From: Clostridia bacterium
GTDB taxonomy: Bacteria; Bacillota; Clostridia; Christensenellales; SZUA-584
Length of the DNA: 64,000 nucleotides
Assembly: GCA_018648645.1 (NCBI GenBank)
Contig: JABGQS010000011.1
Span: forward strand, 1,328-65,327
Reading direction: 5' to 3'
A model generated the notes under the pieces. That model had not been told where the DNA came from and searched no databases. It saw only the letters and a list, made by a program, of their open reading frames with translations. Within the stretch, counting starts at the first letter, position 1; each line of letters starts with the position of its first letter. This document shows positions 26,295 through 51,609 of this stretch, piece by piece. A program made the translations under genes and the position numbers.

Positions 26295-26465
26295 ATGGCA
26301 TATGTAATTAATGACGATTGTATTTCATGCGGTGCTTGCGAGAGCGAATGCCCGTCAAACTCAATTTCTGAAGGTGATGACAAATATGTTATCGATGCAA
26401 AAACTTGCACCGACTGTGGCGACTGCGTAGACAGCTGCCCAACAGACGCTATCTCACCCGGATGA
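26295..26465 (+). CDS. 2x[4Fe-4S] ferredoxin (56 aa; below the ORF-track cutoff)
   Basis: Translates to MAYVINDDCISCGACESECPSNSISEGDDKYVIDAKTCTDCGDCVDSCPTDAISPG, with two CxxCxxCxxxCP motifs. GGAGG ribosome-binding site at 26283-26287. A terminator follows. Confidence 0.88.
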   Translation: MAYVINDDCISCGACESECPSNSISEGDDKYVIDAKTCTDCGDCVDSCPTDAISPG

Positions 26466-40034: not shown

Positions 40035-40063
40035 TTGACATTGTTATTTATTTATCGTAATAT
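40035..40063 (+). promoter_or_regulatory. Near-consensus sigma-A promoter of the ArsR/Mbx-like operon
   Basis: TTGACA (40035-40040), 17-nt AT-rich spacer, TAATAT (40058-40063). Confidence 0.6.
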
Positions 40064-40118
40064 ACGAATATATAGATATGTTAATTTTTTATCAATAATC
40101 TGATGAGGAGTATTCACT

Positions 40119-40403
40119 ATCGAAAACGTAAAGAAAAACTTTAAGCTAATTGAGCAGCAGGCAGAGCTTCTAAAAGCCATATCACACCCCATCCGACTTT
40201 GTATTGTCAACGGATTGATGTCGGAAAAAGGCTGCAATGTGTCGAAAATCGAGGGTTGCCTTGGTGTCCCTCAGTCTACCGTCTCGCAGCATTTGGGGAA
40301 ACTCAAAAGCGCGGGCATCGTTGAAGGACGGCGCAACGGCACAGAAGTAAACTATTATGTGGTTAACGATGATATCAAGAAAATCGTCAACTGCTTAAAA
40401 TAA
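40119..40403 (+). CDS. ArsR/SmtB-family winged-helix regulator (apparent non-canonical start)
   Basis: 'LLKAISHPIRLCIVNGL...STVSQHLGKLKSAGIV' ArsR HTH. The frame is open from the stop at 40104-40106. GAGGAG lies at 40105-40110. There is no ATG/GTG/TTG before TTG 40215, which would delete helices 1-2. Confidence 0.7.
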   Translation: MENVKKNFKLIEQQAELLKAISHPIRLCIVNGLMSEKGCNVSKIEGCLGVPQSTVSQHLGKLKSAGIVEGRRNGTEVNYYVVNDDIKKIVNCLK

Positions 40404-40437
40404 CTATTTTTTATTAAAACTGAAAGAAGGGTATGAA

Positions 40438-40923
40438 ATGAAAAAAACAATTTCTACATTTCTGGTTTTGTTGGCCATATGGGTGCTGCTCACAGGTTTT
40501 AACTGGATGGAAGTCGTTCTTGGCGCGGCCGTATCATTAGTGCTTGCCATTATTATTTCCAGATTCGTAAACTATTCATTTGGCTTTGGCATTATCCTTG
40601 GACTAATCAAGTTTATCGTAATCTACATTCCGGTCTTCATATTTAAACTTGTGCTTGCCAACATTGATATCGCTTATCGGGTGCTAAGCCCAAAGCTTCC
40701 TATCAACCCCGGCATAGTGAAAGTCCCGACAAAACTGAAAAGCGACTTTGGCAAATTCGTGCTTGCAAACTCTATCACGCTGACACCGGGCACACTCTCG
40801 CTAGACGTTGAAGATGACGAAGTGATTGTGCATTGGGTTAACGTAAAAGGCAAAACTTCGGGCGAGCATCAAAGCAGAATTTCCAAAACGTTCGAGAAAC
40901 TGCTTGGAGGTATAGTCAAATGA
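40438..40923 (+). CDS. MrpE/MnhE-like subunit (MbxA position)
   Basis: 'ANSITLTPGTLS' MnhE signature. N-terminal TM helices. ATGA overlap with the next gene. Confidence 0.85.
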   Translation: MKKTISTFLVLLAIWVLLTGFNWMEVVLGAAVSLVLAIIISRFVNYSFGFGIILGLIKFIVIYIPVFIFKLVLANIDIAYRVLSPKLPINPGIVKVPTKLKSDFGKFVLANSITLTPGTLSLDVEDDEVIVHWVNVKGKTSGEHQSRISKTFEKLLGGIVK

Positions 40924-41174
40924 TTATAAACATCATTGTATTTTCGCTGGTTGGCGTTGGCGTGCTGTTCGCGCTGATTCGGCTAATCGCCGGTCCGACC
41001 GCGTTCGACAGAGTCGTAGGGCTCGATACGCTCAACATCATCATCACTGCAACTGTTGTGCTGCTGGCGCTGGTGCTAAAAAACGAGCTGTATCTCGACA
41101 TAGCGATTGTATACGCGGTTCTTTCATTCCTTGAAACCATACTATTCGCTAGATTTTTGGAGGGCAGACGATGA
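40920..41174 (+). CDS. MrpF/MnhF-like subunit (MbxB position)
   Basis: 84 aa, three TM helices, 'IAGPTAFDRVVGLDTL'. Confidence 0.85.
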   Translation: MIINIIVFSLVGVGVLFALIRLIAGPTAFDRVVGLDTLNIIITATVVLLALVLKNELYLDIAIVYAVLSFLETILFARFLEGRR

Positions 41175-41482
41175 TTATTACTTCTTATATATTAATGATA
41201 ATAGGCGCGATTTTTCTGGCACTAGGGGGCTTTGGCGTTTTTAGAATGCCGGACGTATATAACCGCATCCAAGCCGGAACGAAAGCAACCACGCTGGGTG
41301 CGTTCGCGCTGATACTCGGTGTCGGGTTCGCTGAACCCAGCTGGTTTCTAAAAATCGCACTCATCATCGTGTTTATCGCGATAACCAACCCGGTCGGAAG
41401 CTCTACGCTTGCCCGGGCGGCCTACAAAAGCGGTGTTAGCGCAACGCTTTTGCAAAAGCAGAAAGAAGGTGAAGACAAATGA
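41171..41482 (+). CDS. MrpG/MnhG-like subunit (MbxC position)
   Basis: 'FRMPDVYNRIQAGTKATTLG' MnhG/PhaG motif. Confidence 0.85.
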   Translation: MIITSYILMIIGAIFLALGGFGVFRMPDVYNRIQAGTKATTLGAFALILGVGFAEPSWFLKIALIIVFIAITNPVGSSTLARAAYKSGVSATLLQKQKEGEDK

Positions 41483-41733
41483 CAATTCTGCAAATCGTTG
41501 AAATTGTTGTCGGTGTCGCCATGATTGTCTTCGGAATACTGGCAATCAACACCAAAAAATTAATCAACTCGGTCATCTTCCTCTCCGTCATAAGCATGCT
41601 CGCTGTGGTGAGCTTTATGCTGATGAGAGCGCCCGACGTTGCCATCACAGAAGCGGTTATAGGCTCCGGGCTCGTAACGGCAATCTTCGTGTTCACGCTG
41701 TATACTACGAAGAAAGCAGGTGAGAAGATATGA
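41479..41733 (+). CDS. MbhD/DUF4040-family subunit
   Basis: 84 aa, three TM helices, 'RAPDVAITEAVIGSGL'. Confidence 0.8.
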   Translation: MTILQIVEIVVGVAMIVFGILAINTKKLINSVIFLSVISMLAVVSFMLMRAPDVAITEAVIGSGLVTAIFVFTLYTTKKAGEKI

Positions 41734-42488
41734 AACAAGTAGTATCTATACTGTTAGTATTAGCAGTCGGCTTCTTCATCTTCTCCGCGCTATACTTCCC
41801 AAACCAAGGAGACTCCGCGTTTGACAGCTATGGCGAAGTGGATTTGGACGAGCGCGTATCAAGCAGCTTTATCGACAAAAACGTAACAGGCGAAAATGAC
41901 GAAGTGGTGTTTGGAGAGTCGGCAAACCTTGAAGACGGCTCGGCAAACTACGTCACGTCAGTCATCGTCAACTATCGATCGTTCGATACGCTTGGCGAAG
42001 TCACCGTGCTGTTCATCAGCGCATTCGGCGTTGGACTGCTGCTAAGCGGACGCCGCAAGAAGCAGGCTTTTGCGCATCAACCAAACTTCATACTCAAATA
42101 CGGCGCACGTCTTGTGTTTGGCATCATGGTCATCTTCGGTGTCTATATGTTCTCTCACGGACACTTGGCACCGGGCGGCGGTTTCCCCGGCGGCGCAATC
42201 ATTGCCGCGGCACTCTTGCTGCTGTATCTCGCCGACAACGACTTTAGGGCAAAGATGAAAGCGTTCAAAGTAACCGAAGGCATCGCAGGCAGCATATACG
42301 TGATTCTGGGGCTTCTCGCCATCGTGATTGGCGGCTACTTCCTGATGAACTTCCTGCCCACCGGCATCGTCGGTACGATATTCAGCGCAGGTCTCATCCC
42401 AATCATCTACGTGTTGATTGGTCTCAAGGTCGGCAGCGAAATCGCCGGCATCGTAGACAGTTTCCTGACAGTGGAGGTGGAGAAATGA
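41730..42488 (+). CDS. MnhB/MrpB-like subunit
   Basis: 'NYRSFDTLGEVTVLF' and 'GHLAPGGGFPGG' motifs. Confidence 0.85.
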   Translation: MKQVVSILLVLAVGFFIFSALYFPNQGDSAFDSYGEVDLDERVSSSFIDKNVTGENDEVVFGESANLEDGSANYVTSVIVNYRSFDTLGEVTVLFISAFGVGLLLSGRRKKQAFAHQPNFILKYGARLVFGIMVIFGVYMFSHGHLAPGGGFPGGAIIAAALLLLYLADNDFRAKMKAFKVTEGIAGSIYVILGLLAIVIGGYFLMNFLPTGIVGTIFSAGLIPIIYVLIGLKVGSEIAGIVDSFLTVEVEK

Positions 42489-42820
42489 TACAGTATCTTT
42501 CAATTGCACTGATGTTGGTCGGAATATATGGGCTGCTTAGTCAAAGAAACATGATTAAGCTCATCGTTTCGCTCAACATCTTCGAAATCGGACTCAATAT
42601 CTTCATTGTTTCCATCGGGTTTGTGAAGGACGGTCTCGCACCGATTCTGACATCGAACCATAACAGTTCCGCATTGCTTTATGTCGATCCGCTGCCTCAA
42701 GCAATGGTGCTGACAGCAATCGTCATCGGCGTTGGCATTACAGCGCTCGCATTGGCGCTCGCACGAAAGCTATACAAAACGCACGGAACATACGAATTAG
42801 ACGAAATGGAGGGCGAATAA
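42485..42820 (+). CDS. MrpC/NuoK-like subunit
   Basis: 111 aa, three TM helices, 'DPLPQAMVLTAIVIG'. Confidence 0.85.
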   Translation: MIQYLSIALMLVGIYGLLSQRNMIKLIVSLNIFEIGLNIFIVSIGFVKDGLAPILTSNHNSSALLYVDPLPQAMVLTAIVIGVGITALALALARKLYKTHGTYELDEMEGE

Positions 42821-42821
42821 T

Positions 42822-44255
42822 ATGAATCCAGCTCTTTTGATAGCAGCTCCATTACTAGCTGCGTTTATCGCAGTAATATTCAAAAAGATTGACAAAGTTG
42901 TCCTTGGGGTTGTCGCAGTCGGCAACATCGCCTACAGCATTGTCATGGCTGTGCTTTTCACAGGCGCGACGCAAATAGCGATTGGCGGGTTTGCACCGCC
43001 GTTTGGCATCAGCCTCGTTTTGGACAGCTACAGCTTAATCGGCATATTGCTGGTCAACGTCGCGTTCGGTCTCATCCTGTTGATGGGCACCAAGCTGGTT
43101 GGCAGATACGGCATCGTGTTGGCGGTCTCGCTGGCAGCGCTTAACGGCATCGTGCTGACAGGCGACTTGTTCAACCTGTTCGTGTTCATCGAGGTTGCGG
43201 CAATCAGCGCATACATCATGACAACAATGAACAAGCAGCTAAAGCACACGTTTAATTATCTGATACTCGGCACTTTGGCTTCGGGACTGCTGCTGTTTGG
43301 CATCGCGGTGCTATACAACATGTTCGGCTCGCTGAACATCATCGACATTGCTAGCAAACTTGCGATCTCCGGCGTTTCTGCCGGCGCAATGGTGCTGCCG
43401 ATAGTGTTTATCTTCGCAGGACTGTCGGTCGAAGCCAAGCTGATTCCGTTTGGCGGTTGGGTGCGAGGCGTGCTGAAAAAAAGCAACAGCCTTGTCGGAC
43501 CATTGCTGGTCACGGGCTATGCCGCCGCGATACTTTTGGTGTTCGGCAGGCTGACAAGCACCATCTTCATAATGAGCGACGGGCTTAAAATCGCACTCAC
43601 CGTTGTCGCAGTGGCAACGCTGGTGCTTGCGGAGTTCACGGCGTTCAGCAAAAAGAACCTGCGAGAAGTGCTGTTGTTTAGCAGCATCGCACAGTCAGGG
43701 TTGGTCGTCGCGCTTTTCCTAAACGGATTAACGGTGGCAGCGATTCTCGTGCTGGTCAACAACGTTGTCAGCAAACTCGTGCTGTTCGCGCTCTCGGCAA
43801 AAATCGCGGACGACACCGGCACAGACAAAATATCCGAGCTAAAGGGCGTGTTCACAAAATACCGCGTGCTTGGCGTAGGGTTCACAATCGCGGCAATGTC
43901 GCTGATTGGTCTGCCGATGTTCTTTGGCTTTGTCGCCAAGGCACAGGCAGTAATGTCGCTGTTTGAAAGCGGCAACCTATGGCTTCCCGCCGTCATCCTC
44001 CTCGTGAGCGTGATCGAAGGAATCTACATTATAAGAATACTAACAACGCTTTGGAACTCGGGCAAAGAAGGACAGGTTCCAAGCAAAGATGCGCAAAAGG
44101 AATACAAGTTAAACGGGTTTGTGAAGGTGAGCATCGTAGCTCTCGTCATCGGCGTTCTAATCGTCGCCGCGGGTATCCTTCCCATTACAAACATAAAAGA
44201 GTTTTTGAGCTCAGATTTCCTGTCATTTATAACGCGCAGCATGGGAGGTGTTTAA
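42822..44255 (+). CDS. Antiporter-like subunit 1 (divergent MrpD/NuoN family; MbxH position)
   Basis: 477-aa polytopic protein with the NuoL/M/N-type helix pattern but weakly conserved core motifs. Confidence 0.75.
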   Translation: MNPALLIAAPLLAAFIAVIFKKIDKVVLGVVAVGNIAYSIVMAVLFTGATQIAIGGFAPPFGISLVLDSYSLIGILLVNVAFGLILLMGTKLVGRYGIVLAVSLAALNGIVLTGDLFNLFVFIEVAAISAYIMTTMNKQLKHTFNYLILGTLASGLLLFGIAVLYNMFGSLNIIDIASKLAISGVSAGAMVLPIVFIFAGLSVEAKLIPFGGWVRGVLKKSNSLVGPLLVTGYAAAILLVFGRLTSTIFIMSDGLKIALTVVAVATLVLAEFTAFSKKNLREVLLFSSIAQSGLVVALFLNGLTVAAILVLVNNVVSKLVLFALSAKIADDTGTDKISELKGVFTKYRVLGVGFTIAAMSLIGLPMFFGFVAKAQAVMSLFESGNLWLPAVILLVSVIEGIYIIRILTTLWNSGKEGQVPSKDAQKEYKLNGFVKVSIVALVIGVLIVAAGILPITNIKEFLSSDFLSFITRSMGGV

Positions 44256-46091
44256 ATGGGTATTAGTATAGGAGTCGGCACTATAATCGTAGGACTGCTG
44301 ATTAGCGCAGTGCTTGCGTACGTGCTCACGAAAATCAACAAAACAACCGGAGCTTGGGTAACTGTACTCGCACCTTTCCTCGCGCTTGCCGCAGTATTTT
44401 TGCTGCGGGACAGTATAGGCACCACCTACTCGCTGTTTTTCCTCGAGTTCGAACTTACCGAATACGGCTGGTTCTTCTCGATGATTATGCTTCTTGTGTT
44501 TGCCTGCGTGTCGTTCTTCAACGTCTACTGGATGAAAAAGATGGTCCACCCGGCAGCTTACAACATGCTGTATCTTTTGGCACTCACGGGCACGCTTGGT
44601 GCTTTCATGGCAAAGGATTTCATCGGGCTGTTCATCTTCTGGGAAATGATCGTGTGGTCATCGATGTTCATTATACCGTTTGGCAAAAGCAGAAAGGCGT
44701 CTGTCGTGTACTACGCGTTTAGCGCGCTAGGCTCGCTCGCCATGCTATACGGTATATTCTATCTGTACAACGCATTTGGCAGCTTCAACATACAAGAAGT
44801 GCTAAAGCTGGCTGCGACAGACACGACGGCGGCGCTCGTCGCGTTTATCACCATCGGCATCGCCGGTATGGTAAAGCTCGGCGTGTTCCCGTTCCATCTG
44901 TGGCTGCCACGTGCGCACGGCAACGCACCCGACACCTTCTCCCCGATACTCTCGGGCGGGCTGGTCAAGGCGGGCGGCTTCGCTGTGTTCCTGATCGCTG
45001 TGGTCATGCCGTCATACGAAGCGTTTGCGACGCAGCTGCAGTTTATGGGCGTGTCGATAACAAGCTACATATTCATACTGTTTGGCGCGGTCAGCATTGT
45101 TGTGGGCACGCTGATGGCTATCAAGCAGGATGACTTCAAGAAACTAATCGCATACTCGTCCGTGGCCAATGCGGGCTACATCATCATTGGTCTTGCAATG
45201 ACAGACGCACTAAGCGTCGGCGGAGCGTTTATGCACATATTCGCACACGCACTGGCAAGCGCTGCGGCCTTCCTTGCGGTGGCTGCGGTGTCGCACAGAA
45301 CGGGCACAACCAAAATGAGCGAGCTTGGCGGTCTGATACACAGAATGCCGCTGACCTACCTCGTATACCTTATCGCGATTATATCGATGGCGGGCATACC
45401 GCCGATGGCCGGCTTCATCAGCAAATGGATGCTGTTCCAGTCGATGATCGATAACGGTATGGTGTTTGTGGCAACGGCTGCGTTCTTTGGCAGCATCGGC
45501 TCGTTCCTCTACGTGTTCCGCCCATTATCCGCTGTGTTCTTAGGGCAGCTTTCACCAAAGCACTACAAAGTCAAGAAAGCGCCTGTGCTGATGATGATTC
45601 CGATGATTATACTATCGGGCTTGACAGTGCTGTTCGGCATTTTCCCGAACATCGTGCTTCGCATCGTCAGCAGGATACAAACTTCGGTTGGCATGGAAGG
45701 CTTGCAGTTTGACGGAACAAAGATTATCGGAAGCAACGGGTCGCTTGACCCGACGCTGATTGTGGTGATATTCGGTATCGGCTTTATGATTGCGCTGGTT
45801 ATCTTCCTGCTCCATCCGAAATCGAGAAAAGTGGAGCTTATGGACACGTACACAGCTTCTGAGTTTATCTATACACCCGAGCTGCTGCATTACTCGCACA
45901 GCTTCTATGCGCCGTTCGAGCGTCTGTATAAAAACGCGCCCGACACAAGCAAGTGGTACAAGGCGATATTGAAAAAAGTGTCCGAGATTGGTGGATTCGT
46001 CAGCTACGCGTTCTTTAGCAGCAAACCGAGAATTGTGGTTTTCTGGATAGTGATTGCGATGGTAGCATTATTGTGGGGTGGCAGCGTATGA
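44256..46091 (+). CDS. Antiporter-like subunit 2 (MrpD/MrpA/NuoL family; MbxH' position)
   Basis: 'FWEMIVWSS' and 'FPFHLWLPRAHGNAPDTFSPILSGGLVKAG' are a classic proton-antiporter-M core. Confidence 0.85.
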   Translation: MGISIGVGTIIVGLLISAVLAYVLTKINKTTGAWVTVLAPFLALAAVFLLRDSIGTTYSLFFLEFELTEYGWFFSMIMLLVFACVSFFNVYWMKKMVHPAAYNMLYLLALTGTLGAFMAKDFIGLFIFWEMIVWSSMFIIPFGKSRKASVVYYAFSALGSLAMLYGIFYLYNAFGSFNIQEVLKLAATDTTAALVAFITIGIAGMVKLGVFPFHLWLPRAHGNAPDTFSPILSGGLVKAGGFAVFLIAVVMPSYEAFATQLQFMGVSITSYIFILFGAVSIVVGTLMAIKQDDFKKLIAYSSVANAGYIIIGLAMTDALSVGGAFMHIFAHALASAAAFLAVAAVSHRTGTTKMSELGGLIHRMPLTYLVYLIAIISMAGIPPMAGFISKWMLFQSMIDNGMVFVATAAFFGSIGSFLYVFRPLSAVFLGQLSPKHYKVKKAPVLMMIPMIILSGLTVLFGIFPNIVLRIVSRIQTSVGMEGLQFDGTKIIGSNGSLDPTLIVVIFGIGFMIALVIFLLHPKSRKVELMDTYTASEFIYTPELLHYSHSFYAPFERLYKNAPDTSKWYKAILKKVSEIGGFVSYAFFSSKPRIVVFWIVIAMVALLWGGSV

Positions 46092-47044
46092 TTACGATAA
46101 TAATAAGTATCTTAATAGCGCTCGGCATATTGGTGTTTGCGTTCCTATGGCAGACAACGCTGAGCGGAATAACAAGAAAAATTGTGGGCAGATACCAAAA
46201 GCGCTACGGTCCTAGGTTCTACCAGAACTTTAGAGACATCTTCAAAGCGCTGAGCAAACGCGGTATCACGCACGGATGGGTGTACAGCTTTGGCGTTATC
46301 ATGGCGGTCGGCGGTATCATGGCAACGGTCATGTTCCTGCCCCTGTTCGGCATCGTGCCGTTCCCGGGCGTAGACAACTTCTTCATCTATGTCTACCTGT
46401 TCGCTGTCGGAATGCTTGGCATGGCGATGAGCGCTGTAGGCTCGGGCAACCCGCTTGCCGGCATCGGCGTTATGCGCGCACTCACGCAAATGGTCGGCTA
46501 CGAAGTGCCGTTCATGATTGTAGTATTAGCGATGATATACGGACACGGCACAAGCTCATTGTCAGAGCTTGCGGCAATCCAGCAGACATCGGGCTTTCTT
46601 AGCTGGAACCTCGTCAAAATGCCGATTGGCACTATTGTCGGGTTTATATGCCTGCTTGGAATGCTTGGCAAAAAGCCGTTCGAGACCTTTATCGCACCCG
46701 CAGAGATTGCTTCTGGTCCGATGGTCGAATACGGCGGCAAGCAGCTTGGTATGCTGATGATTATGCACGAGCTGGCGACGTTTATCGAAATCAGCTTGTT
46801 CGTAAACTTGTTCCTTGGCGGCGCAACACCGATAGTGTTTGGCGAGACAACCGTGCTAGTCGGGCTTTCATCAGTCGTTGGGTTCCTGCTCAAATACTCT
46901 ATTGTATATATAGTGAGCGCGCTGATAAGCAACGCACTCGGACGATTCAAAATAGACCAAGTTATAAAATACTTCTACAAAGTGCCGATCGTTTTGGCGA
47001 TTATCCAAGCATTGATTGTAGTGTTCCTGGGATGGGGGGTATAG
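46088..47044 (+). CDS. NuoH/HycD/MbhM-like membrane subunit
   Basis: 'RKIVGRYQKRYGPRF' signature. ATGA overlap with the preceding stop. ORF open from 46073. Confidence 0.85.
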   Translation: MITIIISILIALGILVFAFLWQTTLSGITRKIVGRYQKRYGPRFYQNFRDIFKALSKRGITHGWVYSFGVIMAVGGIMATVMFLPLFGIVPFPGVDNFFIYVYLFAVGMLGMAMSAVGSGNPLAGIGVMRALTQMVGYEVPFMIVVLAMIYGHGTSSLSELAAIQQTSGFLSWNLVKMPIGTIVGFICLLGMLGKKPFETFIAPAEIASGPMVEYGGKQLGMLMIMHELATFIEISLFVNLFLGGATPIVFGETTVLVGLSSVVGFLLKYSIVYIVSALISNALGRFKIDQVIKYFYKVPIVLAIIQALIVVFLGWGV

Positions 47045-47047
47045 CAG

Positions 47048-47608
47048 ATGAGTAAAAAAGAAAGAGCTGTAGCAAAACGAAAAAAGAAATGGGATGGCAT
47101 AAGCAACTTCTTTAGAGCCAATTCCATATGGATGCTGATGTATTGTACGGGGTGCTGCGCGATCGAGCTTCCTCAAGCCATGACCAGCAAATACGACATG
47201 GAGCGCCTTGGCATGGGCCCAATGGCAACGCCAAGGCAAGCCGACGTTATATTGGTAACAGGTTACCTTAGCGTAAAAACGCTTAGGCGCGTCATCTATG
47301 CTTACGAGCAAATGGGCGAGCCGAAATATTTGGTGGCGTTTGGCCCTTGCACAATCAACGGCGGCATCTATTACGACGCGCATCCGGTCATCAAGAGTCT
47401 TGACCAGTACCTGCCGATAGACGTATATATCGCAGGTTGTATGCCAAAGCCCGAGGCCGTAATGAACGGGTTCCAAGACTTAATTGATATGATTAAGCGC
47501 AAAGAAGCCAACGGATGGCGCAAGTACCAAGAGAACAAGGAATGGTACAGAGAAAATCAAATTCACGCGCTTGGCGAGCTGCGCATTAAGGATGAGTTCC
47601 ATGAATAA
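47048..47608 (+). CDS. NuoB / hydrogenase small-subunit-like [4Fe-4S] subunit (MbxJ position)
   Basis: 'GCCAIE', 'GPCTINGG' and 'GCMPKPE' give the four Cys of the N2-type cluster. Confidence 0.9.
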   Translation: MSKKERAVAKRKKKWDGISNFFRANSIWMLMYCTGCCAIELPQAMTSKYDMERLGMGPMATPRQADVILVTGYLSVKTLRRVIYAYEQMGEPKYLVAFGPCTINGGIYYDAHPVIKSLDQYLPIDVYIAGCMPKPEAVMNGFQDLIDMIKRKEANGWRKYQENKEWYRENQIHALGELRIKDEFHE

Positions 47609-48119
47609 TATAATTAAAGAATTTGTTGATAATGTGACTGCAAAGTTTGAACTTATGGGCGTCGATTATCCGGCAGACCTGCAAGTCTCGCTCGACTTTG
47701 ACCAGCGTGACATTCACAACGCGCTGGCGTACATAAAAGGCGCAGGCTGGACGCAGATGTCTCTATTGACGTGTGTGGACTGGATAGCCGATAATGAATT
47801 TCAATTGGTGTTTATACTGTTCAATTGGAAAAACGGCGTGCGGTTGCAGGTGCGTACGCGGATTGACCGCGACAAACCTGTTTTCACGACGATCACGAAC
47901 ATATACCCCGGTGCGCAGTACTACGAACGCGACGTGCACGAGTTTTTCGGTGTCGAGTTTGAGGGAAATCCCGACTCGTACAAGCAGCTGTTCCTAGAGA
48001 ACTGGGACGATATCCCGCCGCTGAGAAAAGACTTCGACGCGATTGCTTATTCGGACAGAAAATACCCCGCAAGAAAATACAAAGCGAATTTCAGCACGGA
48101 AGCAGGTGAGAGCAAATGA
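47601..48119 (+). CDS. NuoC (30 kDa)-like subunit (MbxK position)
   Basis: 'YYERDVHEFFGVEFEGNPD'. ATG 47601 overlaps the upstream stop. ORF open from 47571. Confidence 0.85.
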   Translation: MNNIIKEFVDNVTAKFELMGVDYPADLQVSLDFDQRDIHNALAYIKGAGWTQMSLLTCVDWIADNEFQLVFILFNWKNGVRLQVRTRIDRDKPVFTTITNIYPGAQYYERDVHEFFGVEFEGNPDSYKQLFLENWDDIPPLRKDFDAIAYSDRKYPARKYKANFSTEAGESK

Positions 48120-49222
48120 AAGAAGTAAAACTTTTTGTTGGACCACAGCATCCGGGAATGCACGGCAACGCAAGTATTCATATGTACGTTGACGGCGATA
48201 TTATAAACAGGGCTTATTTGCTTCCGGGAATGCTTCACCGAGGTTTCGAAAAATCGATGGAGAAGCGCACGTGGATGAACAACATCGCGCTGATACCGCG
48301 CATTTGCGTGCCCGAACCCGACACAAACGAGATGGTTTACGCGATGAACATCGAAGCGCTGGCCAATATCGAAGTGCCGGAGCGAGCGCATTGGATTCGC
48401 ATGCTGGTGCTTGAGCTTGCTCGGCTCGCTATCCATTTGATGGCGTTTGGCGGCTGCGGCGGCCCGACAGGGCTGTACACTGCAATGTACTGGGCGCAGG
48501 CCGACAGAGACGGCATCCTCGAGCTGTTTGAAGAGATCTCCGGACAGCGCATATATCACATGTATATCGTTGCAGGCGGCGTTCGCAAAGACCTGCCAAA
48601 AGGCATCGAGAAAAAGATCATAGCGTATATTGACGACCTTGAGGCTAGGCTTCCCGACTATGAGGAGTTGGTACTCAACAACCCGTCGATACGAAAAAGA
48701 CTTGTAGACAACATCATTCTTCCAAAAGAAGTGGTTTGGGAGCTTGGCGTTACGGGTATCGGCATGAGAAGCGCAACAGGCGAGCCGTACGACCTGCGAA
48801 AAGTGACACCTTATGCAAGATACGACAAGGTGGAGTTTGACGTGCCGACAGCAACGTATTCGGACGCACAGACCCGAATGACGCTAAAGTACTTAGAGAT
48901 GTACCAGACGATTCGCATCATCCGCCAAGTGCTGGACATGATGCCAAAAGGCAAAGTCAGGGCCAAAGTTGACGACGGAAGCGCGCTGAGATGGAAAGTG
49001 CCTGCAGGTCAGGTATACAGCGCAGTCGAAGCGAGCAGAGGCGAATACGGCTACTACACTGTGTCCACAGGCGAGCTGATGCCATACCGCGTGGCGGTGC
49101 GAGGAGCGTCGTTCCCGCAAGGTCTGCTGGGGCTGGAGAAATACTTACCGGGTCACAGAATTGACGATGCACCACTCTGGTTTGACACGATGGGCATCTG
49201 TTCACCGGAAATCGATAGATAG
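48116..49222 (+). CDS. NuoD / [NiFe]-hydrogenase large-subunit homologue lacking two of the four Ni-Fe cysteines (MbxL-like)
   Basis: 'GPQHPGMHG' N-terminus. The N-terminal ligand motif reads 'RICVPE' (Cys64, Glu67) and the C-terminal motif reads 'GICSPEIDR' (Cys362, Glu365). Confidence 0.85.
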   Translation: MKEVKLFVGPQHPGMHGNASIHMYVDGDIINRAYLLPGMLHRGFEKSMEKRTWMNNIALIPRICVPEPDTNEMVYAMNIEALANIEVPERAHWIRMLVLELARLAIHLMAFGGCGGPTGLYTAMYWAQADRDGILELFEEISGQRIYHMYIVAGGVRKDLPKGIEKKIIAYIDDLEARLPDYEELVLNNPSIRKRLVDNIILPKEVVWELGVTGIGMRSATGEPYDLRKVTPYARYDKVEFDVPTATYSDAQTRMTLKYLEMYQTIRIIRQVLDMMPKGKVRAKVDDGSALRWKVPAGQVYSAVEASRGEYGYYTVSTGELMPYRVAVRGASFPQGLLGLEKYLPGHRIDDAPLWFDTMGICSPEIDR

Positions 49223-49234
49223 GAGCGAAAGCAA

Positions 49235-51058
49235 ATGAGTAAAAATAGTATAATTGCCCCATTAAAGGGCTGGAAGTATCTGTTCAAGAAACCCATTAGC
49301 GTTCCTATGGATGACATCTTTAAGAACCCTAGAGAGTCTCGTGATAACTATAGAGGCTTTCATGTGAACGATTGGGAAAAATGCATCGGCTGCGGCACGT
49401 GCGGCGAAATCTGCCCGACCAAAGCAATCACGATGGTCGAGCGCGGCGAGATCGAGGAGAAAGACGGCGTGAAAGCAGAGCGTCCTGTCGTAGACTACGG
49501 CAGGTGCTGTTTCTGTGGCTTGTGCGTGGATATCTGCGCATCGGGTTCGCTGAACATGACCAAAGGTTATCTGTTCAATTCATCCGACCCTGAGAACTAC
49601 ATTCACATGCCGAGGGAATTGGACATCACGGGCAAGGAGCATAAACTCGGCTACGTGAAAGACGAGTCTTCGGACTTGCTTGACCTAGAGCGCAAGCACA
49701 TGGAGCAAGTGGATCCGGGCGAACGCAAAAACTCGTTTGTCGAAATTGTTCGCGGTTTTTCTAAGCAGCAGGCAATTGCCGAATCCGCAAGATGTGTGGC
49801 GTGCGAAATCTGCACAAAAACGTGCCCTGCCAACATGAACATCCCCGATTACATTAAAACCATTTGGGACGACAAAGTTGAAGACGGGCTGGAGATACTA
49901 TACGAAACAAATCCGCTGCCGTCGGTGTGCGGTCGCATATGCACACACATGTGCGAAGACGCTTGCGCAATCGGCAACCGCGGAGACGCAGTCGCTATAC
50001 GATGGCTAAAGCGCTATATCGTGGACAACATGCCGGACGAGCAGTACGAGAAGCTGGCACTGGCGAGCGTGTCTAAAAAAGGCAACGGCAGAGTTGCAAT
50101 CGTGGGCGCAGGCAGCTCCGGGCTTTCGGCCGCGTATTATCTGACAACGCTAGGATACGAAGTGGAAATGTACGAGAAGCTGCCACTAGCCGGCGGACCG
50201 ATGCGCTACGGCGCGCCGCGATATCGCCTGCCCGACGACGTTGTTGACAAGGATATCGGCTTTATCGAAAAGCTCGGTGTCAAGATTAACACCGGCGTGG
50301 AAATCGGTAAAAATATTATGCTCGGAGAGCTTAAAGATAAGTTTGACGCTGTGTTTGTCGCGACAGGATATCCGCACACGCAGCACCTCGATATCGAAGG
50401 CAGCGAGCACAACGACGTCATTGAAGCGATGGATTTCCTGGAGGAATCTGCAGATTATGTCCGCGGTGTTTCCGCTATGCCGGACATTGAAGAAAACGTA
50501 GTGGTCATCGGCTCGGGCAACGTTGCTTTCGACGTAGCGCGGACGCTGATACGCTTCCAGAACGAGAAGTTTGGCAAGTCTAGTGTGATGATGATGGCGC
50601 TTGAGCGCGAGGATCAAGTCCCCGCAGACGCCGAGGAAGTTGAAGAAGGCACAGCCGAAGGCATCATATTTAACCTAGGCTGCGGACCGCAGAAAATCGA
50701 CATCAACGAGGATACAGGTGCTGTTGCTTCTGTCGAGGCGCACGCTTGCACACGGCTGTTTGACGAAAAGGGCAAGTTCGCTCCGGTGTTCGACCCAAGC
50801 ATCACGCAGTGCGTTATCACCAAGCAGGTTTACTTGGCTATCGGTCAAGTTCCCGACTTTTCATACATCAGCGACGAGCTTCAATCGAAAATGGACTTAA
50901 CCGGCGGCAAAATCAAAGTGGGTCCGCTCGGCGAAGTGAAAGGCATGCCTTGGCTGTTTGCAGGCGGCGACATCGTGCACGGCATGGACATCATCAACGG
51001 CGTGGCCGACGGTCACAAAGCGGCGCTCGGTATCGACAAGTACCTTTCGAAGAAATAA
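49235..51058 (+). CDS. Fusion of a NuoI/MbhN-like 2x[4Fe-4S] domain with a GltD/SudA/NfnB-type NAD(P)H-FAD oxidoreductase
   Basis: 'CIGCGTCGEICP' and 'CCFCGLCVDICA' (NuoI-like). 'RCVACEICTKTCP' and 'CGRICTHMCEDAC' (GltD N-terminal clusters). 'VAIVGAGSSGLSAA' (FAD), 'VVVIGSGNVAFDVA' (NAD(P)H), 'FAGGDIV'. Confidence 0.85.
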   Translation: MSKNSIIAPLKGWKYLFKKPISVPMDDIFKNPRESRDNYRGFHVNDWEKCIGCGTCGEICPTKAITMVERGEIEEKDGVKAERPVVDYGRCCFCGLCVDICASGSLNMTKGYLFNSSDPENYIHMPRELDITGKEHKLGYVKDESSDLLDLERKHMEQVDPGERKNSFVEIVRGFSKQQAIAESARCVACEICTKTCPANMNIPDYIKTIWDDKVEDGLEILYETNPLPSVCGRICTHMCEDACAIGNRGDAVAIRWLKRYIVDNMPDEQYEKLALASVSKKGNGRVAIVGAGSSGLSAAYYLTTLGYEVEMYEKLPLAGGPMRYGAPRYRLPDDVVDKDIGFIEKLGVKINTGVEIGKNIMLGELKDKFDAVFVATGYPHTQHLDIEGSEHNDVIEAMDFLEESADYVRGVSAMPDIEENVVVIGSGNVAFDVARTLIRFQNEKFGKSSVMMMALEREDQVPADAEEVEEGTAEGIIFNLGCGPQKIDINEDTGAVASVEAHACTRLFDEKGKFAPVFDPSITQCVITKQVYLAIGQVPDFSYISDELQSKMDLTGGKIKVGPLGEVKGMPWLFAGGDIVHGMDIINGVADGHKAALGIDKYLSKK

Positions 51059-51079
51059 TAACTATAGCAGCAAAATAAT

Positions 51080-51110
51080 AAAAAGACCTGCAAAGTGCAG
51101 GTCTTTTTTT
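51080..51110 (+). terminator. Strong terminator closing the 13-gene operon
   Basis: aaaaagacctgca-aag-tgcaggtcttttttt. Confidence 0.8.
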
Positions 51111-51189: not shown

Positions 51190-51609
51190 CTACTCAATCC
51201 TCAAAAAGTTCTTTATAGAATCGAGTATCTCCTGCAAGTCAGTGATGACCTCATTGGCAGATTCCATGCTAACCGCAAGCTCCTCGAGCGAGCTCGTGAT
51301 ACTCTCTATATCATCCTCGTATTGCATAAACGAGTTCTCTACAGCAGCAATCTCCTCTTTTATCTCCTGCGTAATCTCGTCCACTTTGCCCTCCAGCTCG
51401 CCCATAAACATCTGCGACAAAGCGGTGAAATCTATCGGCGACTGCTCGCCCATGTTCTCTTCAATTTCGTCAAGCTGTCTTTGGATGCTGCGAAGCTCCT
51501 TCTCGACCCGCTGGTTCGAAATGTACAAGTAAGCCGCGAGGGCACCCGTCACCGCCAAAACAACGGCGAGCATGATAATCACTACTCTTAATAACGTTTT
51601 TTCTTTCAT
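51190..51609 (-). CDS. Single-pass membrane coiled-coil protein
   Basis: N-terminal TM helix 'VVIIMLAVVLAVTGALAAYLY', then an acidic heptad-like region. Lies downstream of the GT2-PilZ gene. Confidence 0.6.
   Translation of the reverse strand: MKEKTLLRVVIIMLAVVLAVTGALAAYLYISNQRVEKELRSIQRQLDEIEENMGEQSPIDFTALSQMFMGELEGKVDEITQEIKEEIAAVENSFMQYEDDIESITSSLEELAVSMESANEVITDLQEILDSIKNFLRIE

What the first reader, a model, noticed from the sequence alone, without database searches (positions are those of the whole stretch)
40035..51110. Bacterial Mbx/MBS-type, Mrp-linked respiratory complex: 13 translationally coupled genes in the archaeal order
Between a near-consensus promoter (40035-40063) and a strong terminator (51080-51110) lie ArsR and 13 co-directional genes. 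Most are joined by ATGA-type overlaps.

The order is MrpE, MrpF, MrpG, MbhD/DUF4040, MnhB, MrpC/NuoK, two antiporter-like subunits (477 and 611 aa), NuoH-like, NuoB-like, NuoC-like, NuoD/[NiFe]-large-subunit-like, and NuoI-like. This matches the order I recall for Pyrococcus mbx/mbs (A B C D F G H H' M J K L N). It includes the second antiporter-like subunit that distinguishes Mbx from the Mbh hydrogenase.

There are no NuoE/F/G homologues, quinone-module extras or hyp/hyc maturation genes in the window. The catalytic subunit cannot bind Ni-Fe, and the electron-input subunit is fused to an NAD(P)H-FAD module; both points are covered in separate findings. Together this predicts an ion-translocating oxidoreductase whose donor/acceptor pair is unknown in a Clostridia-like host.
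Basis: partly seen in the sequence, partly recalled or inferred. Interest (0 to 1): 0.88.

Follow-up and report, generated by a model that had tools for sequence, protein, structure and literature searches.

The report
Bacterial Mbx/MBS-type membrane redox complex operon
This is a real, intact 13-gene operon for an Mbx/MBS-type, complex-I-like ion-pumping oxidoreductase whose last subunit carries its own NAD(H)-flavin module; the same operon occurs in hundreds of anaerobic bacteria and is already in the literature, so it is a new member of a known but biochemically untested kind.

Summary
Thirteen co-directional genes lie at 40438-51058. Eight of the 12 junctions overlap and the rest are 0-12 nt apart. 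An ArsR-type regulator gene sits upstream, behind a promoter that is conserved in relatives, and a strong bidirectional terminator follows.

For 11 of the 13 products the best solved-structure match is the corresponding subunit of Pyrococcus furiosus MBS (PDB 6U8Y); for B and D, MBS and MBH score about the same. The order is the same: A-B-C-D-E-G-H-H'-M-J-K-L-N. L keeps only 2 of the 4 [NiFe] cysteines. N is fused to an NfnB/GltD-type module (2x[4Fe-4S], FAD, NAD(P)H site).

At least 566 species genomes encode the fused subunit, including Christensenellales, Izemoplasmatales, Vallitaleaceae and Thermotogota. All 58 of the 80 fetched loci with enough upstream DNA show the identical gene order. 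Bacterial mbx operons, including the gltD-type subunit, were described in 2015, and T. maritima mbxA is induced by S0. I found no biochemical characterisation.

New details:
- The NADPH-binding 'YRR' is replaced by an invariant 'ALE', which predicts NADH.
- This lineage's J subunit carries a CxxCC motif.
- H lacks two named charged-axis residues.
- An orphan methyltransferase-fold gene is a frequent neighbour.

Donor and acceptor remain inferred.

The parts
40035..40063 (+). sigma-70-type promoter TTGACA-17-TAATAT of the arsR-mbx transcription unit
   Evidence: 10 of 12 matches. The same -35/spacer/-10 is conserved upstream of the orthologous arsR in most Christensenellales-type loci.
40058..40083 (.). 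palindromic operator-like element overlapping the -10 box; candidate ArsR binding site (inferred)
   Evidence: Inverted repeat I2. The conserved counterpart in relatives is, for example, CTATATCGTAATATATAGATATAG in L007.
40119..40403 (+). ArsR/SmtB-family winged-helix regulator, 94 aa, probable non-canonical ATC start; 34 nt upstream of mbxA with no terminator between
40438..40923 (+). MbxA (MrpE-like), 161 aa
   Evidence: Pfam MNHE 2e-40. Best PDB match 6u8y_A, 122 bits, against 6cfw_A, 73 bits.
40920..41174 (+). MbxB (MrpF-like), 84 aa
   Evidence: Pfam MrpF_PhaF. 6cfw_B scores 54.7 bits and 6u8y_B 51.3 bits.
41171..41482 (+). MbxC (MrpG-like), 103 aa
   Evidence: Pfam PhaG_MnhG_YufB. 6u8y_C scores 67 bits.
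41479..41733 (+). MbxD (MbhD/DUF4040), 84 aa
   Evidence: Pfam MbhD. 6u8y_D scores 45 bits.
41730..42488 (+). MbxE, fused MbhE + MnhB-like, 252 aa
   Evidence: Pfam MbhE + MnhB. 6u8y_E scores 186 bits, against 6cfw_F at 49 and 6cfw_E at 26.
42485..42820 (+). MbxG (MrpC/NuoK-like), 111 aa
   Evidence: Pfam Oxidored_q2. 6u8y_G scores 84 bits.
42822..44255 (+). MbxH, antiporter-like subunit, 477 aa. E124, E204, K206 and K318 are conserved or nearly so; the MbsH K250 and H330 equivalents are A235 and V310
44256..46091 (+). MbxH', second antiporter-like subunit with C-terminal extension, 611 aa. E130, K207, K238, H327 and H331 are invariant in 63 of 63 loci read
   Evidence: NCBIfam PRK08668, 686 bits, above its cut-off. 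6u8y_X scores 233 bits over residues 10-603.
46088..47044 (+). MbxM (NuoH-like membrane anchor), 318 aa
   Evidence: Pfam NADHdh. 6u8y_M scores 188 bits against 6cfw_M at 65. Start as.
47048..47608 (+). MbxJ (NuoB-like, proximal [4Fe-4S]), 186 aa, with cysteines C33, C36, C37, C101 and C131
   Evidence: 6u8y_J scores 219 bits in a gap-free alignment. The motif is YCTGCCAIE here and FCTGCGGIE in MbsJ.
47601..48119 (+). MbxK (NuoC-like), 172 aa
   Evidence: Pfam Complex1_30kDa. 6u8y_K scores 81 bits.
48116..49222 (+). MbxL (NuoD / [NiFe]-large-subunit-like, no Ni-Fe site), 368 aa. C64 and C362 are retained; E67 and E365 sit at the two lost cysteine positions
   Evidence: MBS features from PMC7684303.
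49235..51058 (+). MbxN fused to an NfnB/GltD-type flavoprotein, 607 aa. Residues 1-130 are the NuoI-like 2x[4Fe-4S] domain; 165-268 are Fer4_20 with 2x[4Fe-4S]; 286-600 carry the FAD and NAD(H) sites
   Evidence: Sixteen cluster cysteines and both GxGxxG motifs are invariant in A1.
51080..51108 (.). bidirectional intrinsic terminator shared with the convergent gene 51190-51609 (-)
38913..39842 (+). 309-aa protein with no Pfam match and a predicted class I methyltransferase fold; a frequent neighbour of mbx operons. Its link to the complex is tentative

Best explanation
The region is a 14-gene transcription unit (arsR plus mbxABCDEGHH'MJKLN). [quoted passage not shown]

Shown by sequence comparison:
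- A membrane arm made of an Mrp-like module (A, B, C, D, E, G) and two antiporter-like subunits (H, H').
- A NuoH-like anchor (M).
- A peripheral arm (J, K, L, N) with no Ni-Fe site.
- N extended by an NfnB/GltD-type module.

Inferred wiring: NAD(H) exchanges a hydride with FAD. Electrons then pass through the two [4Fe-4S] clusters of the GltD-type domain, the two clusters of the NuoI-like domain and the proximal cluster in J. They reach the conserved chamber formed by J, L, M and the H' loop. Ferredoxin probably also feeds the N clusters, as it does in MBS.

Chemistry in that chamber drives H+/Na+ export through H', H and the Mrp module. The most likely chamber substrate is a sulfane-sulfur compound (polysulfide or persulfide), as in archaeal MBS. 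On this view the enzyme is a dual-input (NADH plus reduced ferredoxin) respiratory sulfur reductase. That would suit bacteria whose glycolysis makes NADH, whereas P. furiosus glycolysis makes only reduced ferredoxin.

The ArsR-type repressor probably binds the palindrome over the -10 box and releases it in response to a thiol-reactive signal.

Identity and architecture are secure. The pyridine-nucleotide preference is a motif-based prediction. The acceptor, the role of ferredoxin and the ion are inference.
For: Identity. All 13 subunits match the P. furiosus MBS chains in order; 11 have MBS as their best PDB match and B and D score alike against MBS and MBH. Pfam and NCBIfam agree.

The chamber is under selection. 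L's RxCVxEPD and CxPExDR motifs and its beta1-beta2 loop are invariant or nearly so, and J's four cluster-position cysteines are invariant, across 60-70 divergent loci. H' pump residues are invariant.

Wire. Sixteen cluster cysteines and the FAD and NAD(P)H glycine motifs are invariant in the fused N. The domain matches NfnI-L at 219 bits.

NADH. The NfnI/NfnB 'YRR' aligns with an invariant 'ALE'. By the general Rossmann-fold rule, an acidic residue at the end of beta2 favours NAD.

Sulfur. MBS reduces polysulfide at the proximal cluster (PMC7684303). J aligns gap-free with the shortened MbsJ loop. T. maritima mbxA rises 4.4-fold on S0 (PMC9431562). The regulator's nearest solved relatives include BigR, YgaV and SqrR; that these respond to sulfide or persulfide is my own knowledge.

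Not a hydrogenase or quinone reductase. The CxxC pairs are absent, the quinone tyrosine (bovine Y108) is Val65, and the window holds no hyp or NuoEFG genes.
Against: No bacterial Mbx has been purified, so no activity is shown.

NADH to polysulfide spans only about 50-60 mV (my own estimate), too little to drive several ion channels without ferredoxin.

No sulfur-metabolism gene is consistently next to the operon in 126 flanking ORFs.

Mesotoga mbx is weakly expressed on thiosulfate (bioRxiv 322537). In an Izemoplasma isolate, genes annotated as NADH-ubiquinone oxidoreductase rise with rich medium rather than with sulfur (PMC8397711); that these are the mbx genes is my inference.

This lineage's J has a CxxCC motif. 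The extra cysteine could supply a fourth ligand and close the open iron proposed as the MBS catalytic site.

H lacks two of the three named MbsH axis residues.

In MBS the two retained L cysteines were dispensable in vitro.

The regulator's cysteines do not align exactly with the BigR cysteine visible in that alignment.
Confidence: 0.5

Rival explanations
1. An Rnf-like ferredoxin:NAD(P)+ oxidoreductase, which is the older 'Mbx' model. Reduced ferredoxin donates to the N clusters, the fused flavoprotein reduces NAD(P)+, and the free-energy difference is stored as an ion gradient. The reverse reaction would make reduced ferredoxin.
For: This is the function assigned to bacterial mbx in genome papers (PMC4758237, PMC4596419, bioRxiv 322537). 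The fused NAD(H)-FAD module is the one feature that separates the bacterial form from the archaeal form. The roughly 130-180 mV span is enough for ion pumping (my own estimate). The carriers are fermenters that make both carriers. Expression rises with fermentative growth in an Izemoplasma isolate, if its 'NADH-ubiquinone oxidoreductase' genes are this operon.
Against: In complex-I-type machines coupling happens at the J/L/M chamber. A ferredoxin-to-N-to-FAD route bypasses J and L, yet those sites are invariant across phyla. The original assignment for P. furiosus Mbx was replaced by sulfane reduction. T. maritima, Mesotoga and Izemoplasmatales are reported to carry Rnf as well, which would make this function redundant.
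Confidence: 0.3
2. An NADH:quinone oxidoreductase: a complex-I-like enzyme that uses a GltD-type flavoprotein instead of NuoEFG as its NADH-input module.
For: L scores 229 bits to NDUFS2 and passes the NCBIfam NuoD model cut-off, 417 against 360. The beta1-beta2 loop GPQHPGMHG keeps the histidine equivalent to bovine H59. J carries tandem cysteines as at complex I cluster N2.
Against: The quinone-binding tyrosine is Val65 within the conserved RxCVxEPD motif. The membrane arm is of Mrp/MBS type. The tandem CC is absent from Thermotogota orthologues (25 loci). No quinone-biosynthesis genes lie in the window. That many carriers, such as Izemoplasmatales and Christensenellales, lack quinones is my expectation and was not tested.
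Confidence: 0.07
3. A flavin-based electron-bifurcating or confurcating ion pump. The NfnB-type FAD would split or merge electrons between NAD(H), ferredoxin (through its own two clusters) and the membrane-arm chamber (through N and J).
For: The fused module is homologous to the subunit that holds the bifurcating FAD of NfnAB (5jca_L, 219 bits). Four clusters in one polypeptide could form two branches.
Against: There is no NfnA-like [2Fe-2S]/FAD partner in the operon. In GltD, DPD and related enzymes the same two clusters act as a simple wire (my own knowledge). The domain order NuoI - Fer4_20 - FAD fits a linear chain. The NADPH site typical of Nfn is altered from YRR to ALE.
Confidence: 0.05
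4. A genuine group-4 [NiFe]-hydrogenase of the Mbh or Ech type.
For: The complex shares ancestry and Pfam families with these enzymes. MbhL matches at 1e-34.
Against: Both CxxC pairs are reduced to single cysteines, with Glu at the second positions, in all 60-plus orthologues. L is far closer to MbsL (288 bits) than to MbhL (123) or HycE (91). The window holds no hyp or hyc genes. Two antiporter-like subunits match MBS rather than MBH.
Confidence: 0.02

Closest known systems
Pyrococcus furiosus membrane-bound sulfane reductase MBS (formerly Mbx), PDB 6U8Y, PMC7684303
   Same: Thirteen subunits in the same gene order. For 11 of the 13 window proteins the best solved-structure match is the corresponding MBS chain; B and D score alike against MBS and MBH. 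E is the fused form. Both H and H' are present. L keeps the same two cysteines (C85/C385 correspond to C64/C362). J has the same shortened CxxC loop.
   Different: N is fused to a roughly 470-residue NfnB/GltD-type flavoprotein, whereas MbsN is 208 aa. J reads CxxCC in this lineage. The L beta1-beta2 loop is GPQHPGMHG rather than GPQHMAT-EN. H lacks the K250 and H330 equivalents. The host is bacterial and the regulator is of ArsR type rather than SurR.
Bacterial 'mbx-like' operons with a gltD-type subunit: Thermotoga maritima MBX, Mesotoga prima Theba_1796-1808, other Thermotogota; NCBIfam NF010590/PRK13984
   Same: The same 13-gene order and the same fused N in every Thermotogota locus examined, including Fervidobacterium islandicum, Thermosipho and Kosmotogaceae. 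The fusion was noted in PMC4758237. N matches the PRK13984 model over its full length at 835 bits.
   Different: About 50% identity. Thermotogota J reads CTGCG rather than CTGCC. The Thermotogota loci have no ArsR gene and no methyltransferase-fold neighbour. The N score is below the PRK13984 equivalog cut-off of 946.
mbx operon of Caldanaerobacter subterraneus subsp. yonseiensis / Thermoanaerobacter wiegelii (PMC4596419)
   Same: An mbx cluster in Clostridia, already interpreted as a non-hydrogenase because MbxL lacks the CxxC motifs.
   Different: I did not compare the sequences directly. The hosts are thermophiles, and that paper labels the complex a ferredoxin:NADP oxidoreductase.
Pyrococcus furiosus membrane-bound hydrogenase MBH (PDB 6CFW)
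   Same: Mrp-linked architecture and homologous A-N subunits.
   Different: MBH has one antiporter-like subunit, separate E and F, four Ni-Fe cysteines and a longer J loop. Scores are lower for every subunit except B and D; L scores 123 bits against 288 for MBS.
Respiratory complex I / NDH-1
   Same: Homologous Q-module (NuoB, C, D, I), NuoH, NuoK and antiporter-like subunits. Tandem cysteines in J. The histidine of the beta1-beta2 loop is present.
   Different: No NuoEFG, NuoA, NuoJ or NuoL-type arrangement. The quinone tyrosine is replaced by Val. An Mrp-type distal module is present.
NfnAB / GltD / SudA family of NAD(P)H-FAD-2x[4Fe-4S] modules
   Same: Residues 160-606 align end to end with NfnI-L (5jca_L), T. 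maritima NfnB (4ylf_B) and GltD. All cluster and dinucleotide motifs are kept.
   Different: The module is covalently joined to a NuoI-like domain. There is no NfnA or GltB partner. The 2'-phosphate-binding YRR is replaced by ALE.

Membership tests
MBS/Mbx-type membrane-bound oxidoreductase (P. furiosus MBS, 6U8Y) | Thirteen subunits A, B, C, D, E, G, H, H', M, J, K, L, N, each with an orthologue, encoded in that order | tested here: met
   For 11 of the 13 products the best PDB hit is the corresponding 6u8y chain; B and D score alike against 6u8y and 6cfw. Order as.
MBS/Mbx-type membrane-bound oxidoreductase (P. furiosus MBS, 6U8Y) | Two antiporter-like subunits, the second (H') with a C-terminal extension (lateral helix plus TMH15-16) | tested here: met
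   The 611-aa protein aligns at 10-603 with 7-611 of MbsH'. E130, K238 and H327 correspond to E128, K248 and H336.
MBS/Mbx-type membrane-bound oxidoreductase (P. furiosus MBS, 6U8Y) | L subunit retains only two of the four [NiFe] cysteines (MbsL C85, C385) | tested here: met
   C64 in RICVPEPD and C362 in CSPEIDR. E67 and E365 sit at the lost positions. Both cysteines are invariant in the 68-78 loci where they could be read.
MBS/Mbx-type membrane-bound oxidoreductase (P. furiosus MBS, 6U8Y) | J subunit with the shortened CxxC loop that leaves one iron of the proximal cluster without a cysteine ligand | tested here: inconclusive
   The loop length is the same as in MbsJ, with a gap-free alignment. 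This lineage has an additional adjacent cysteine, CTGCC, in 44 of 69 loci. Whether it ligates the fourth iron cannot be told from sequence.
MBS/Mbx-type membrane-bound oxidoreductase (P. furiosus MBS, 6U8Y) | Central charged axis in H (MbsH E138, K250, H330) | tested here: not met
   E124 is conserved. K250 corresponds to A235 and H330 to V310. No bacterial locus examined has Lys at the K250 position.
MBS/Mbx-type membrane-bound oxidoreductase (P. furiosus MBS, 6U8Y) | Stand-alone N subunit (2x[4Fe-4S]) as the ferredoxin entry point | tested here: not met
   The N domain is present (residues 3-118 match 6u8y_N at 99 bits) but is fused to a GltD/NfnB-type flavoprotein.
MBS/Mbx-type membrane-bound oxidoreductase (P. 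furiosus MBS, 6U8Y) | Ferredoxin-dependent polysulfide reduction coupled to ion translocation | not testable with these tools
   Needs enzyme assays.
Bacterial mbx-like operon with gltD-fused N (Thermotogota type; NF010590/PRK13984) | Fused NuoI-GltD protein of about 605-615 aa as the last gene of a 13-gene mbx operon | tested here: met
   Full-length match to NF010590 (1-606 against 6-608, 835 bits, below the equivalog cut-off of 946). Identical synteny in all 58 of the 80 loci with enough upstream DNA, Thermotogota included.
Group 4 [NiFe]-hydrogenase (Mbh, Ech, Hyc, Coo) | L1 (RxCGxCxxxH) and L2 (DPCxxCxxH/R) cysteine pairs in the large subunit | tested here: not met
   One cysteine per motif, each followed by Glu at +3.
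Group 4 [NiFe]-hydrogenase (Mbh, Ech, Hyc, Coo) | hyp maturation genes and an endopeptidase in the genome | tested here: inconclusive
   None among the called genes of the 64-kb window. The rest of the genome is not available.
Respiratory complex I (NADH:quinone oxidoreductase) | Quinone-headgroup ligands in NuoD (bovine Y108 and H59) | tested here: not met
   Y108 corresponds to V65. H59 corresponds to H16 and is present.
Respiratory complex I (NADH:quinone oxidoreductase) | NuoE/F/G NADH-input module | tested here: not met
   Absent from the operon and the window.
NfnAB transhydrogenase | NfnB-type subunit with 2x[4Fe-4S], FAD and an NADPH site, together with an NfnA ([2Fe-2S] + FAD) partner | tested here: not met
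   The NfnB-type module is present, but no NfnA-like gene lies in the operon and the NADPH motif YRR is replaced by ALE.

The most novel reading that the evidence does not exclude
The bacterial fused form is not just 'MBS in a bacterium'. It would be an independently invented pyridine-nucleotide input module for a complex-I-like pump. An NfnB-type flavin, which is the bifurcating site in Nfn, would act as a branch point between NAD(H), ferredoxin and the membrane-coupled chamber. Flavin-based confurcation or bifurcation would then be wired directly to ion translocation. In many lineages an orphan methyltransferase-fold protein encoded next to the operon would serve as a dedicated maturation factor, analogous to NDUFAF5 and NDUFAF7 of mitochondrial complex I.
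Probability: 0.08. Interest if true: 0.8.

Novelty: new member of a known kind. Interest (0 to 1): 0.33.

Why it matters
Mbx/MBS-type complexes sit between Mrp antiporters, membrane hydrogenases and complex I in current schemes of how respiration evolved.

The bacterial form with a built-in NAD(H)-flavin module is widespread. At least 566 species genomes carry it, including gut- and digester-associated Christensenellales, sediment Izemoplasmatales and Thermotogota. It is routinely mis-annotated as 'NADH-quinone oxidoreductase' plus 'glutamate synthase small chain' or 'FAD-dependent oxidoreductase', and I found no biochemical test of it.

Knowing its donor, acceptor and ion would change energy-budget models for many fermentative anaerobes. 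It would also show whether a GltD-type module is a second, independent way of connecting pyridine nucleotides to a complex-I-like pump.

This particular window adds one more member and a few testable sequence predictions. It does not add a new kind of system.

Tried and rejected
1. Hydrogenase reading. Rejected on the cysteine motifs and on relative similarity.

2. Quinone reductase reading. Weakened by Val at the quinone-tyrosine position.

3. A conserved sulfur-metabolism, rubrerythrin or other neighbour that would name the substrate. I scanned 126 flanking ORFs from 46 loci (plus the window's own 309-aa ORF) against Pfam. Nothing was consistent. The commonest families were sigma and anti-sigma factors (RsgI_M in 8 members), Pyr_redox_2 in 5, and GSHPx and AhpC in 4 each.

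4. Whether the ArsR regulator is a BigR/SqrR-type persulfide sensor. Its nearest solved relatives are PagR, BigR and YgaV, but its cysteines do not line up with the BigR cysteine visible in the alignment, which lies three residues away on the same helix. The question stays open.

5. Whether the methyltransferase-fold neighbour is exclusive to mbx loci. It is not. One genome has two tandem paralogues in an ABC-transporter context. A second look-up landed on a 1.7-kb contig and told nothing.

6. Literature searches for a purified or structurally solved bacterial Mbx found none. The search for 'Mbx-like/MbxN/MbsN' returned mostly unrelated acronyms.

PDB and NCBIfam score ranking was used instead.

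8. Internal promoters and terminators. Scan counts inside the operon are at or near chance level, so none is claimed.

Full report
**What is in the sequence**

Thirteen co-directional + strand genes lie between 40438 and 51058. Successive junctions are -4, -4, -4, -4, -4, +1, 0, -4, +3, -8, -4 and +12 nt. Each start codon is preceded by a purine-rich, mostly GGAG/GAGG-like stretch.

Two starts differ from the longest-ORF reading. The NuoH-like gene begins at ATG 46088, which forms an ATGA overlap. The NuoC-like gene begins at ATG 47601. Both agree with the public gene calls for the same contig.

An ArsR/SmtB-family gene ends 34 nt upstream of the first gene, with no terminator in between. Downstream, 51080-51108 is a perfect 13-bp hairpin with a T7 tail on the + strand and an A-run on the other side. 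It folds at -22.2 kcal/mol with z = -7.9 against shuffles. It can terminate both the operon and the convergent gene at 51190-51609.

The promoter-like site at 40035-40063 (TTGACA-17-TAATAT) would mean little as a scan hit alone, since 23 sites were found against 14 expected. But the same -35, spacing and -10 recur upstream of the orthologous arsR gene in most of the Christensenellales-type loci, followed by a palindrome such as CTATATCGTAATATATAGATATAG. That is a phylogenetic footprint of a real promoter with an operator over the -10 box.

**What the genes encode**

Pfam gives the following, in order:
- MNHE
- MrpF
- MnhG
- MbhD
- MbhE + MnhB in one protein
- NuoK-like
- two Proton_antipo_M proteins (477 and 611 aa)
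- NuoH-, NuoB-, NuoC- and NuoD-like proteins
- a 607-aa protein with a NuoI-like 2x[4Fe-4S] domain, followed by Fer4_20 and Pyr_redox_2

I searched each product against all solved structures. For 11 of the 13 products the best match is the corresponding chain of the P. furiosus membrane-bound sulfane reductase MBS (6U8Y); B and D score about the same against MBS and MBH. The order is A, B, C, D, E, G, H, H' (chain X), M, J, K, L, N.

Discrimination from the hydrogenase MBH is clear for the informative subunits:

| Subunit | MBS (6U8Y), bits | MBH (6CFW), bits |
|---|---|---|
| L | 288 | 123 |
| E | 186 | 49 |
| J | 219 | 100 |
| M | 188 | 65 |
| A | 122 | 73 |

L also scores 229 bits to NDUFS2 and 91 to HycE.

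In the structure nomenclature the fifth subunit is the fused E.

**Test of the MBS-defining features**

The features come from the MBS structure paper (PMC7684303).

- L subunit. MbsL keeps two of the four Ni-Fe cysteines, C85 and C385. The window's L has C64 in RICVPEPD and C362 in CSPEIDR at exactly those positions. Glu sits three residues after each, where hydrogenases have the second cysteine.
- J subunit. MbsJ has a CxxC loop three residues shorter than MbhJ, so one iron of the proximal cluster lacks a cysteine ligand. The window's J aligns with MbsJ without a gap: YCTGCCAIE against FCTGCGGIE. It has an extra adjacent cysteine, as at cluster N2 of complex I.
- H' subunit. It keeps E130, K238 and H327, equivalent to MbsH' E128, K248 and H336.
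- H subunit. It keeps E124, but has Ala and Val where MbsH has K250 and H330.
- Quinone tyrosine. The complex I residue (bovine Y108) is Val65 here.

So the complex is of MBS type. It cannot be a [NiFe]-hydrogenase and lacks a canonical quinone site. It differs from archaeal MBS in N, in one J residue and in H.

**The fused subunit**

Residues 3-118 match MbsN. Residues 160-606 align end to end with the large subunit of NfnI (5jca_L, 219 bits), T. maritima NfnB (4ylf_B) and GltD.

I aligned 14 full-length homologues that are 53-69% identical to the window protein. All sixteen cysteines of four CxxCxxCxxxC-type or Cx3Cx3Cx3C-type motifs are invariant. So are the FAD and NAD(P)H glycine motifs. 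The subunit therefore carries four [4Fe-4S] clusters, FAD and a dinucleotide site.

One detail is informative. The 'YRR' that follows the second Rossmann strand in NfnI and NfnB aligns with an invariant 'ALE'. In NADPH enzymes of this kind those residues bind the 2'-phosphate; this role is stated from general knowledge. An acidic residue at that position is the classic mark of NAD rather than NADP preference. I therefore predict NADH, not NADPH. This is an inference from a motif.

**How common it is**

- A protein search returned 3582 relatives. The best 120 were listed, nearly all full-length at about 605-615 aa. They come from Clostridiales and Saccharofermentanales MAGs, Petrotoga, Haliovirga, Mycoplasmatota and Anaerolineales.
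- The nearest relatives, at 67-69% identity, are mostly labelled Christensenellaceae or 'Candidatus Limiplasma', so the host is most likely a member of Christensenellales.
- In tblastn with the window's 14 proteins, all 58 of the 80 fetched loci with enough upstream DNA show A-B-C-D-E-G-H-H'-M-J-K-L-N in the same order and on the same strand. These include Fervidobacterium islandicum, Thermosipho, Kosmotogaceae, Izemoplasmatales, Vallitaleaceae and Peptococcaceae.
- The arsR gene is found upstream only in 17 Clostridia-type loci.
- Across these loci both L cysteines, the two Glu residues that replace the lost cysteines and the four cluster-position cysteines of J are invariant; the surrounding L motifs and the GP[QN]HPGMHGN loop are nearly so. 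J reads CTGCC in 44 loci (Christensenellales, Izemoplasmatales) and CTGCG in 25 (Thermotogota and others).
- The H' pump residues are invariant in 63 of 63 loci. No bacterial H has Lys at the MbsH K250 position.

**What is already known**

- An mbx cluster in Caldanaerobacter and Thermoanaerobacter (Clostridia) was described in 2015, with the missing CxxC motifs noted (PMC4596419).
- T. maritima has a '13-subunit MBX' whose mbxA rises 4.4-fold on S0 (PMC9431562).
- Mesotoga prima Mbx (Theba_1796-1808) is modelled as a Na+-exporting ferredoxin:NAD(P) oxidoreductase with low expression on thiosulfate.
- NCBI has a protein-family model for the fused subunit (NF010590/PRK13984). The window protein matches it full-length at 835 bits, below the equivalog cut-off of 946.
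- In an Izemoplasma isolate, 'NADH-ubiquinone oxidoreductase' genes rise up to 20-fold in rich medium (PMC8397711). Izemoplasmatales carry this operon, so those genes are probably mbx. That is my inference.
- I found no purification, activity or structure of any bacterial version.

**How it most likely works**

Shown: the parts list, the cofactor-binding motifs and their conservation.

Inferred: a linear electron path. It runs NAD(H) - FAD - two clusters of the GltD-type domain - two clusters of the N domain - proximal cluster of J - chamber formed by J, L, M and the H' loop. Ion export goes through H', H and the Mrp-type module.

The chamber residues and the J cluster are conserved across phyla. 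I therefore think a substrate reacts there. A path from ferredoxin to N to FAD would bypass it, and selection would have no reason to keep it.

By homology with MBS and the S0 induction in T. maritima, a sulfane-sulfur compound is the best candidate. NADH alone offers only about 50-60 mV against polysulfide (my own estimate). Ferredoxin probably also feeds the N clusters and provides the driving force.

A dual-input enzyme would make physiological sense. P. furiosus glycolysis yields only reduced ferredoxin, whereas bacterial glycolysis yields NADH as well. A built-in NADH module would let one enzyme dispose of both.

The main rival is the older ferredoxin:NAD(P)+ (Rnf-like) model, at about 0.3. 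The less likely rivals are:
- quinone reduction, 0.07
- flavin-based bifurcation, 0.05
- hydrogenase, 0.02

Several points weigh against the sulfur model:
- No sulfur gene is a consistent neighbour.
- Expression in Mesotoga and Izemoplasma does not follow sulfur.
- The CxxCC variant might close the open iron site.
- H is atypical.

**Window context**

The other called genes of the window are housekeeping and sugar-metabolism genes. They include smpB, RNase R, secG, holB, tmk, mnmA, FBP aldolase, mannitol dehydrogenase, crcB, a dockerin/SpoIID protein, a ZIP transporter, a PilZ-containing glycosyltransferase, PPDK-like, fucose isomerase, an FGGY kinase and a sugar ABC transporter. A 56-aa 2x[4Fe-4S] ferredoxin gene lies at about 26295-26465.

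The window contains no hyp, hyc, rnf, ech, nuoEFG, quinone-biosynthesis or sulfur-enzyme genes. The rest of the genome is not available.

Operon G+C is 50.5%, against 48.5% for the window.

**An unplanned finding**

The 309-aa ORF at 38913-39842 lies just upstream of the arsR promoter and has no Pfam family. Homologues lie next to the mbx operon in 38 of the 80 loci:
- 22 directly downstream of N on the same strand
- 12 directly upstream on the same strand
- 4 upstream on the opposite strand
- none in Thermotogota

An AlphaFold2 model built on 12 homologues is confident (pLDDT 88.6, pTM 0.88). Its best structural matches are all class I SAM-dependent methyltransferases, with E from 4e-7 to 1e-5 and TM-scores of 0.29-0.66. 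Invariant motifs are GxGxxNDxD, VxLxDxD, FDxVxSCPxYTQ and WPFDE.

A profile search of 1.84 billion representatives finds 477 clusters at E <= 1e-10, nearly all about 290-313 aa.

The family is not exclusive to mbx loci. One 3.15-Mb genome has two tandem paralogues among ABC-transporter genes.

Mitochondrial complex I needs two methyltransferase-fold assembly factors that act on the L and J homologues (NDUFAF7 on NDUFS2, NDUFAF5 on NDUFS7); this is my own knowledge. That makes a maturation role an attractive idea, but it is untested.

**Verdict**

The finding is real and correctly interpreted. It is a further member of a widespread, already described, biochemically uncharacterised bacterial Mbx family.

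It yields these testable predictions:
- NADH specificity
- a role for Cys37 of J
- an ArsR operator
- a non-ATG start for arsR
- a possible methyltransferase-fold accessory factor

Noticed in passing
window 38913-39842 (+): A 309-aa protein with no Pfam family. The predicted fold is a class I SAM-dependent methyltransferase (pLDDT 88.6). A homologue lies directly next to the mbx operon in 38 of 80 loci from Christensenellales, Izemoplasmatales, Vallitaleaceae and others, but in no Thermotogota locus. The family also occurs away from mbx, as two tandem paralogues in L084. It may be an accessory or maturation factor.
   Followed up: partly
window 40119 (arsR start); L002-L012, L057: The arsR gene has no ATG/GTG/TTG before codon 33. 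At the conserved start position, 6-9 nt after a GAGG Shine-Dalgarno sequence, the codon is ATC (window, L008-L010), ATA (L003-L006), ATT (L007, L057) or ATG (L002, L011, L012). This points to a non-canonical AUH start. The public gene call is truncated to 54 aa.
   Followed up: partly
window 40035-40083: The TTGACA-17-TAATAT promoter and an overlapping palindrome are conserved in most of the Christensenellales-type loci. This is a likely ArsR autoregulatory operator.
   Followed up: partly
window 50597-50605 (MbxN residues A455-L456-E457): The NADPH 2'-phosphate-binding 'YRR' of NfnI/NfnB aligns with an invariant 'ALE', which predicts NADH rather than NADPH use.
   Followed up: partly
window 47144-47158 (MbxJ C33-C37): The motif is CTGCC (tandem cysteines, as at complex I cluster N2) in 44 loci and CTGCG (as in P. 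furiosus MbsJ) in 25 loci. It is a lineage-specific difference at the proposed catalytic cluster.
   Followed up: partly
window 42822-44255 (MbxH): The first antiporter-like subunit lacks the equivalents of MbsH K250 and H330 in all bacterial loci examined, while H' keeps the full set. H may be a modified or non-canonical ion path.
   Followed up: partly
window about 26295-26465 (+): A gene for a small 56-aa 2x[4Fe-4S] ferredoxin lies about 14 kb upstream of the operon. It is a possible electron carrier for the complex.
   Followed up: no
window 803-2439 (-): A tmRNA gene (2075-2439, tag AGSKASKARGTVYAKLCA) is followed directly by a phage-type integrase gene (803-1837), with smpB further along. 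This is the usual layout of an element integrated at ssrA.
   Followed up: no
window 51190-51609 (-): A convergent 139-aa ORF with an N-terminal hydrophobic segment and only weak Pfam matches, mostly to coiled-coil-type families. It shares the bidirectional terminator with the operon.
   Followed up: no
window 51746-53641 (-): A cellulose-synthase-like GT2 glycosyltransferase with a PilZ domain. A dockerin/SpoIID protein lies at about 29.8-31.6 kb.
   Followed up: no
L003, L004: Two loci with nearly identical mbx operons are labelled 'Anaerofustis sp.' and 'Prolixibacteraceae bacterium' in their records, although the operon groups with Christensenellales. The MAG taxonomy labels may be unreliable.
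   Followed up: no
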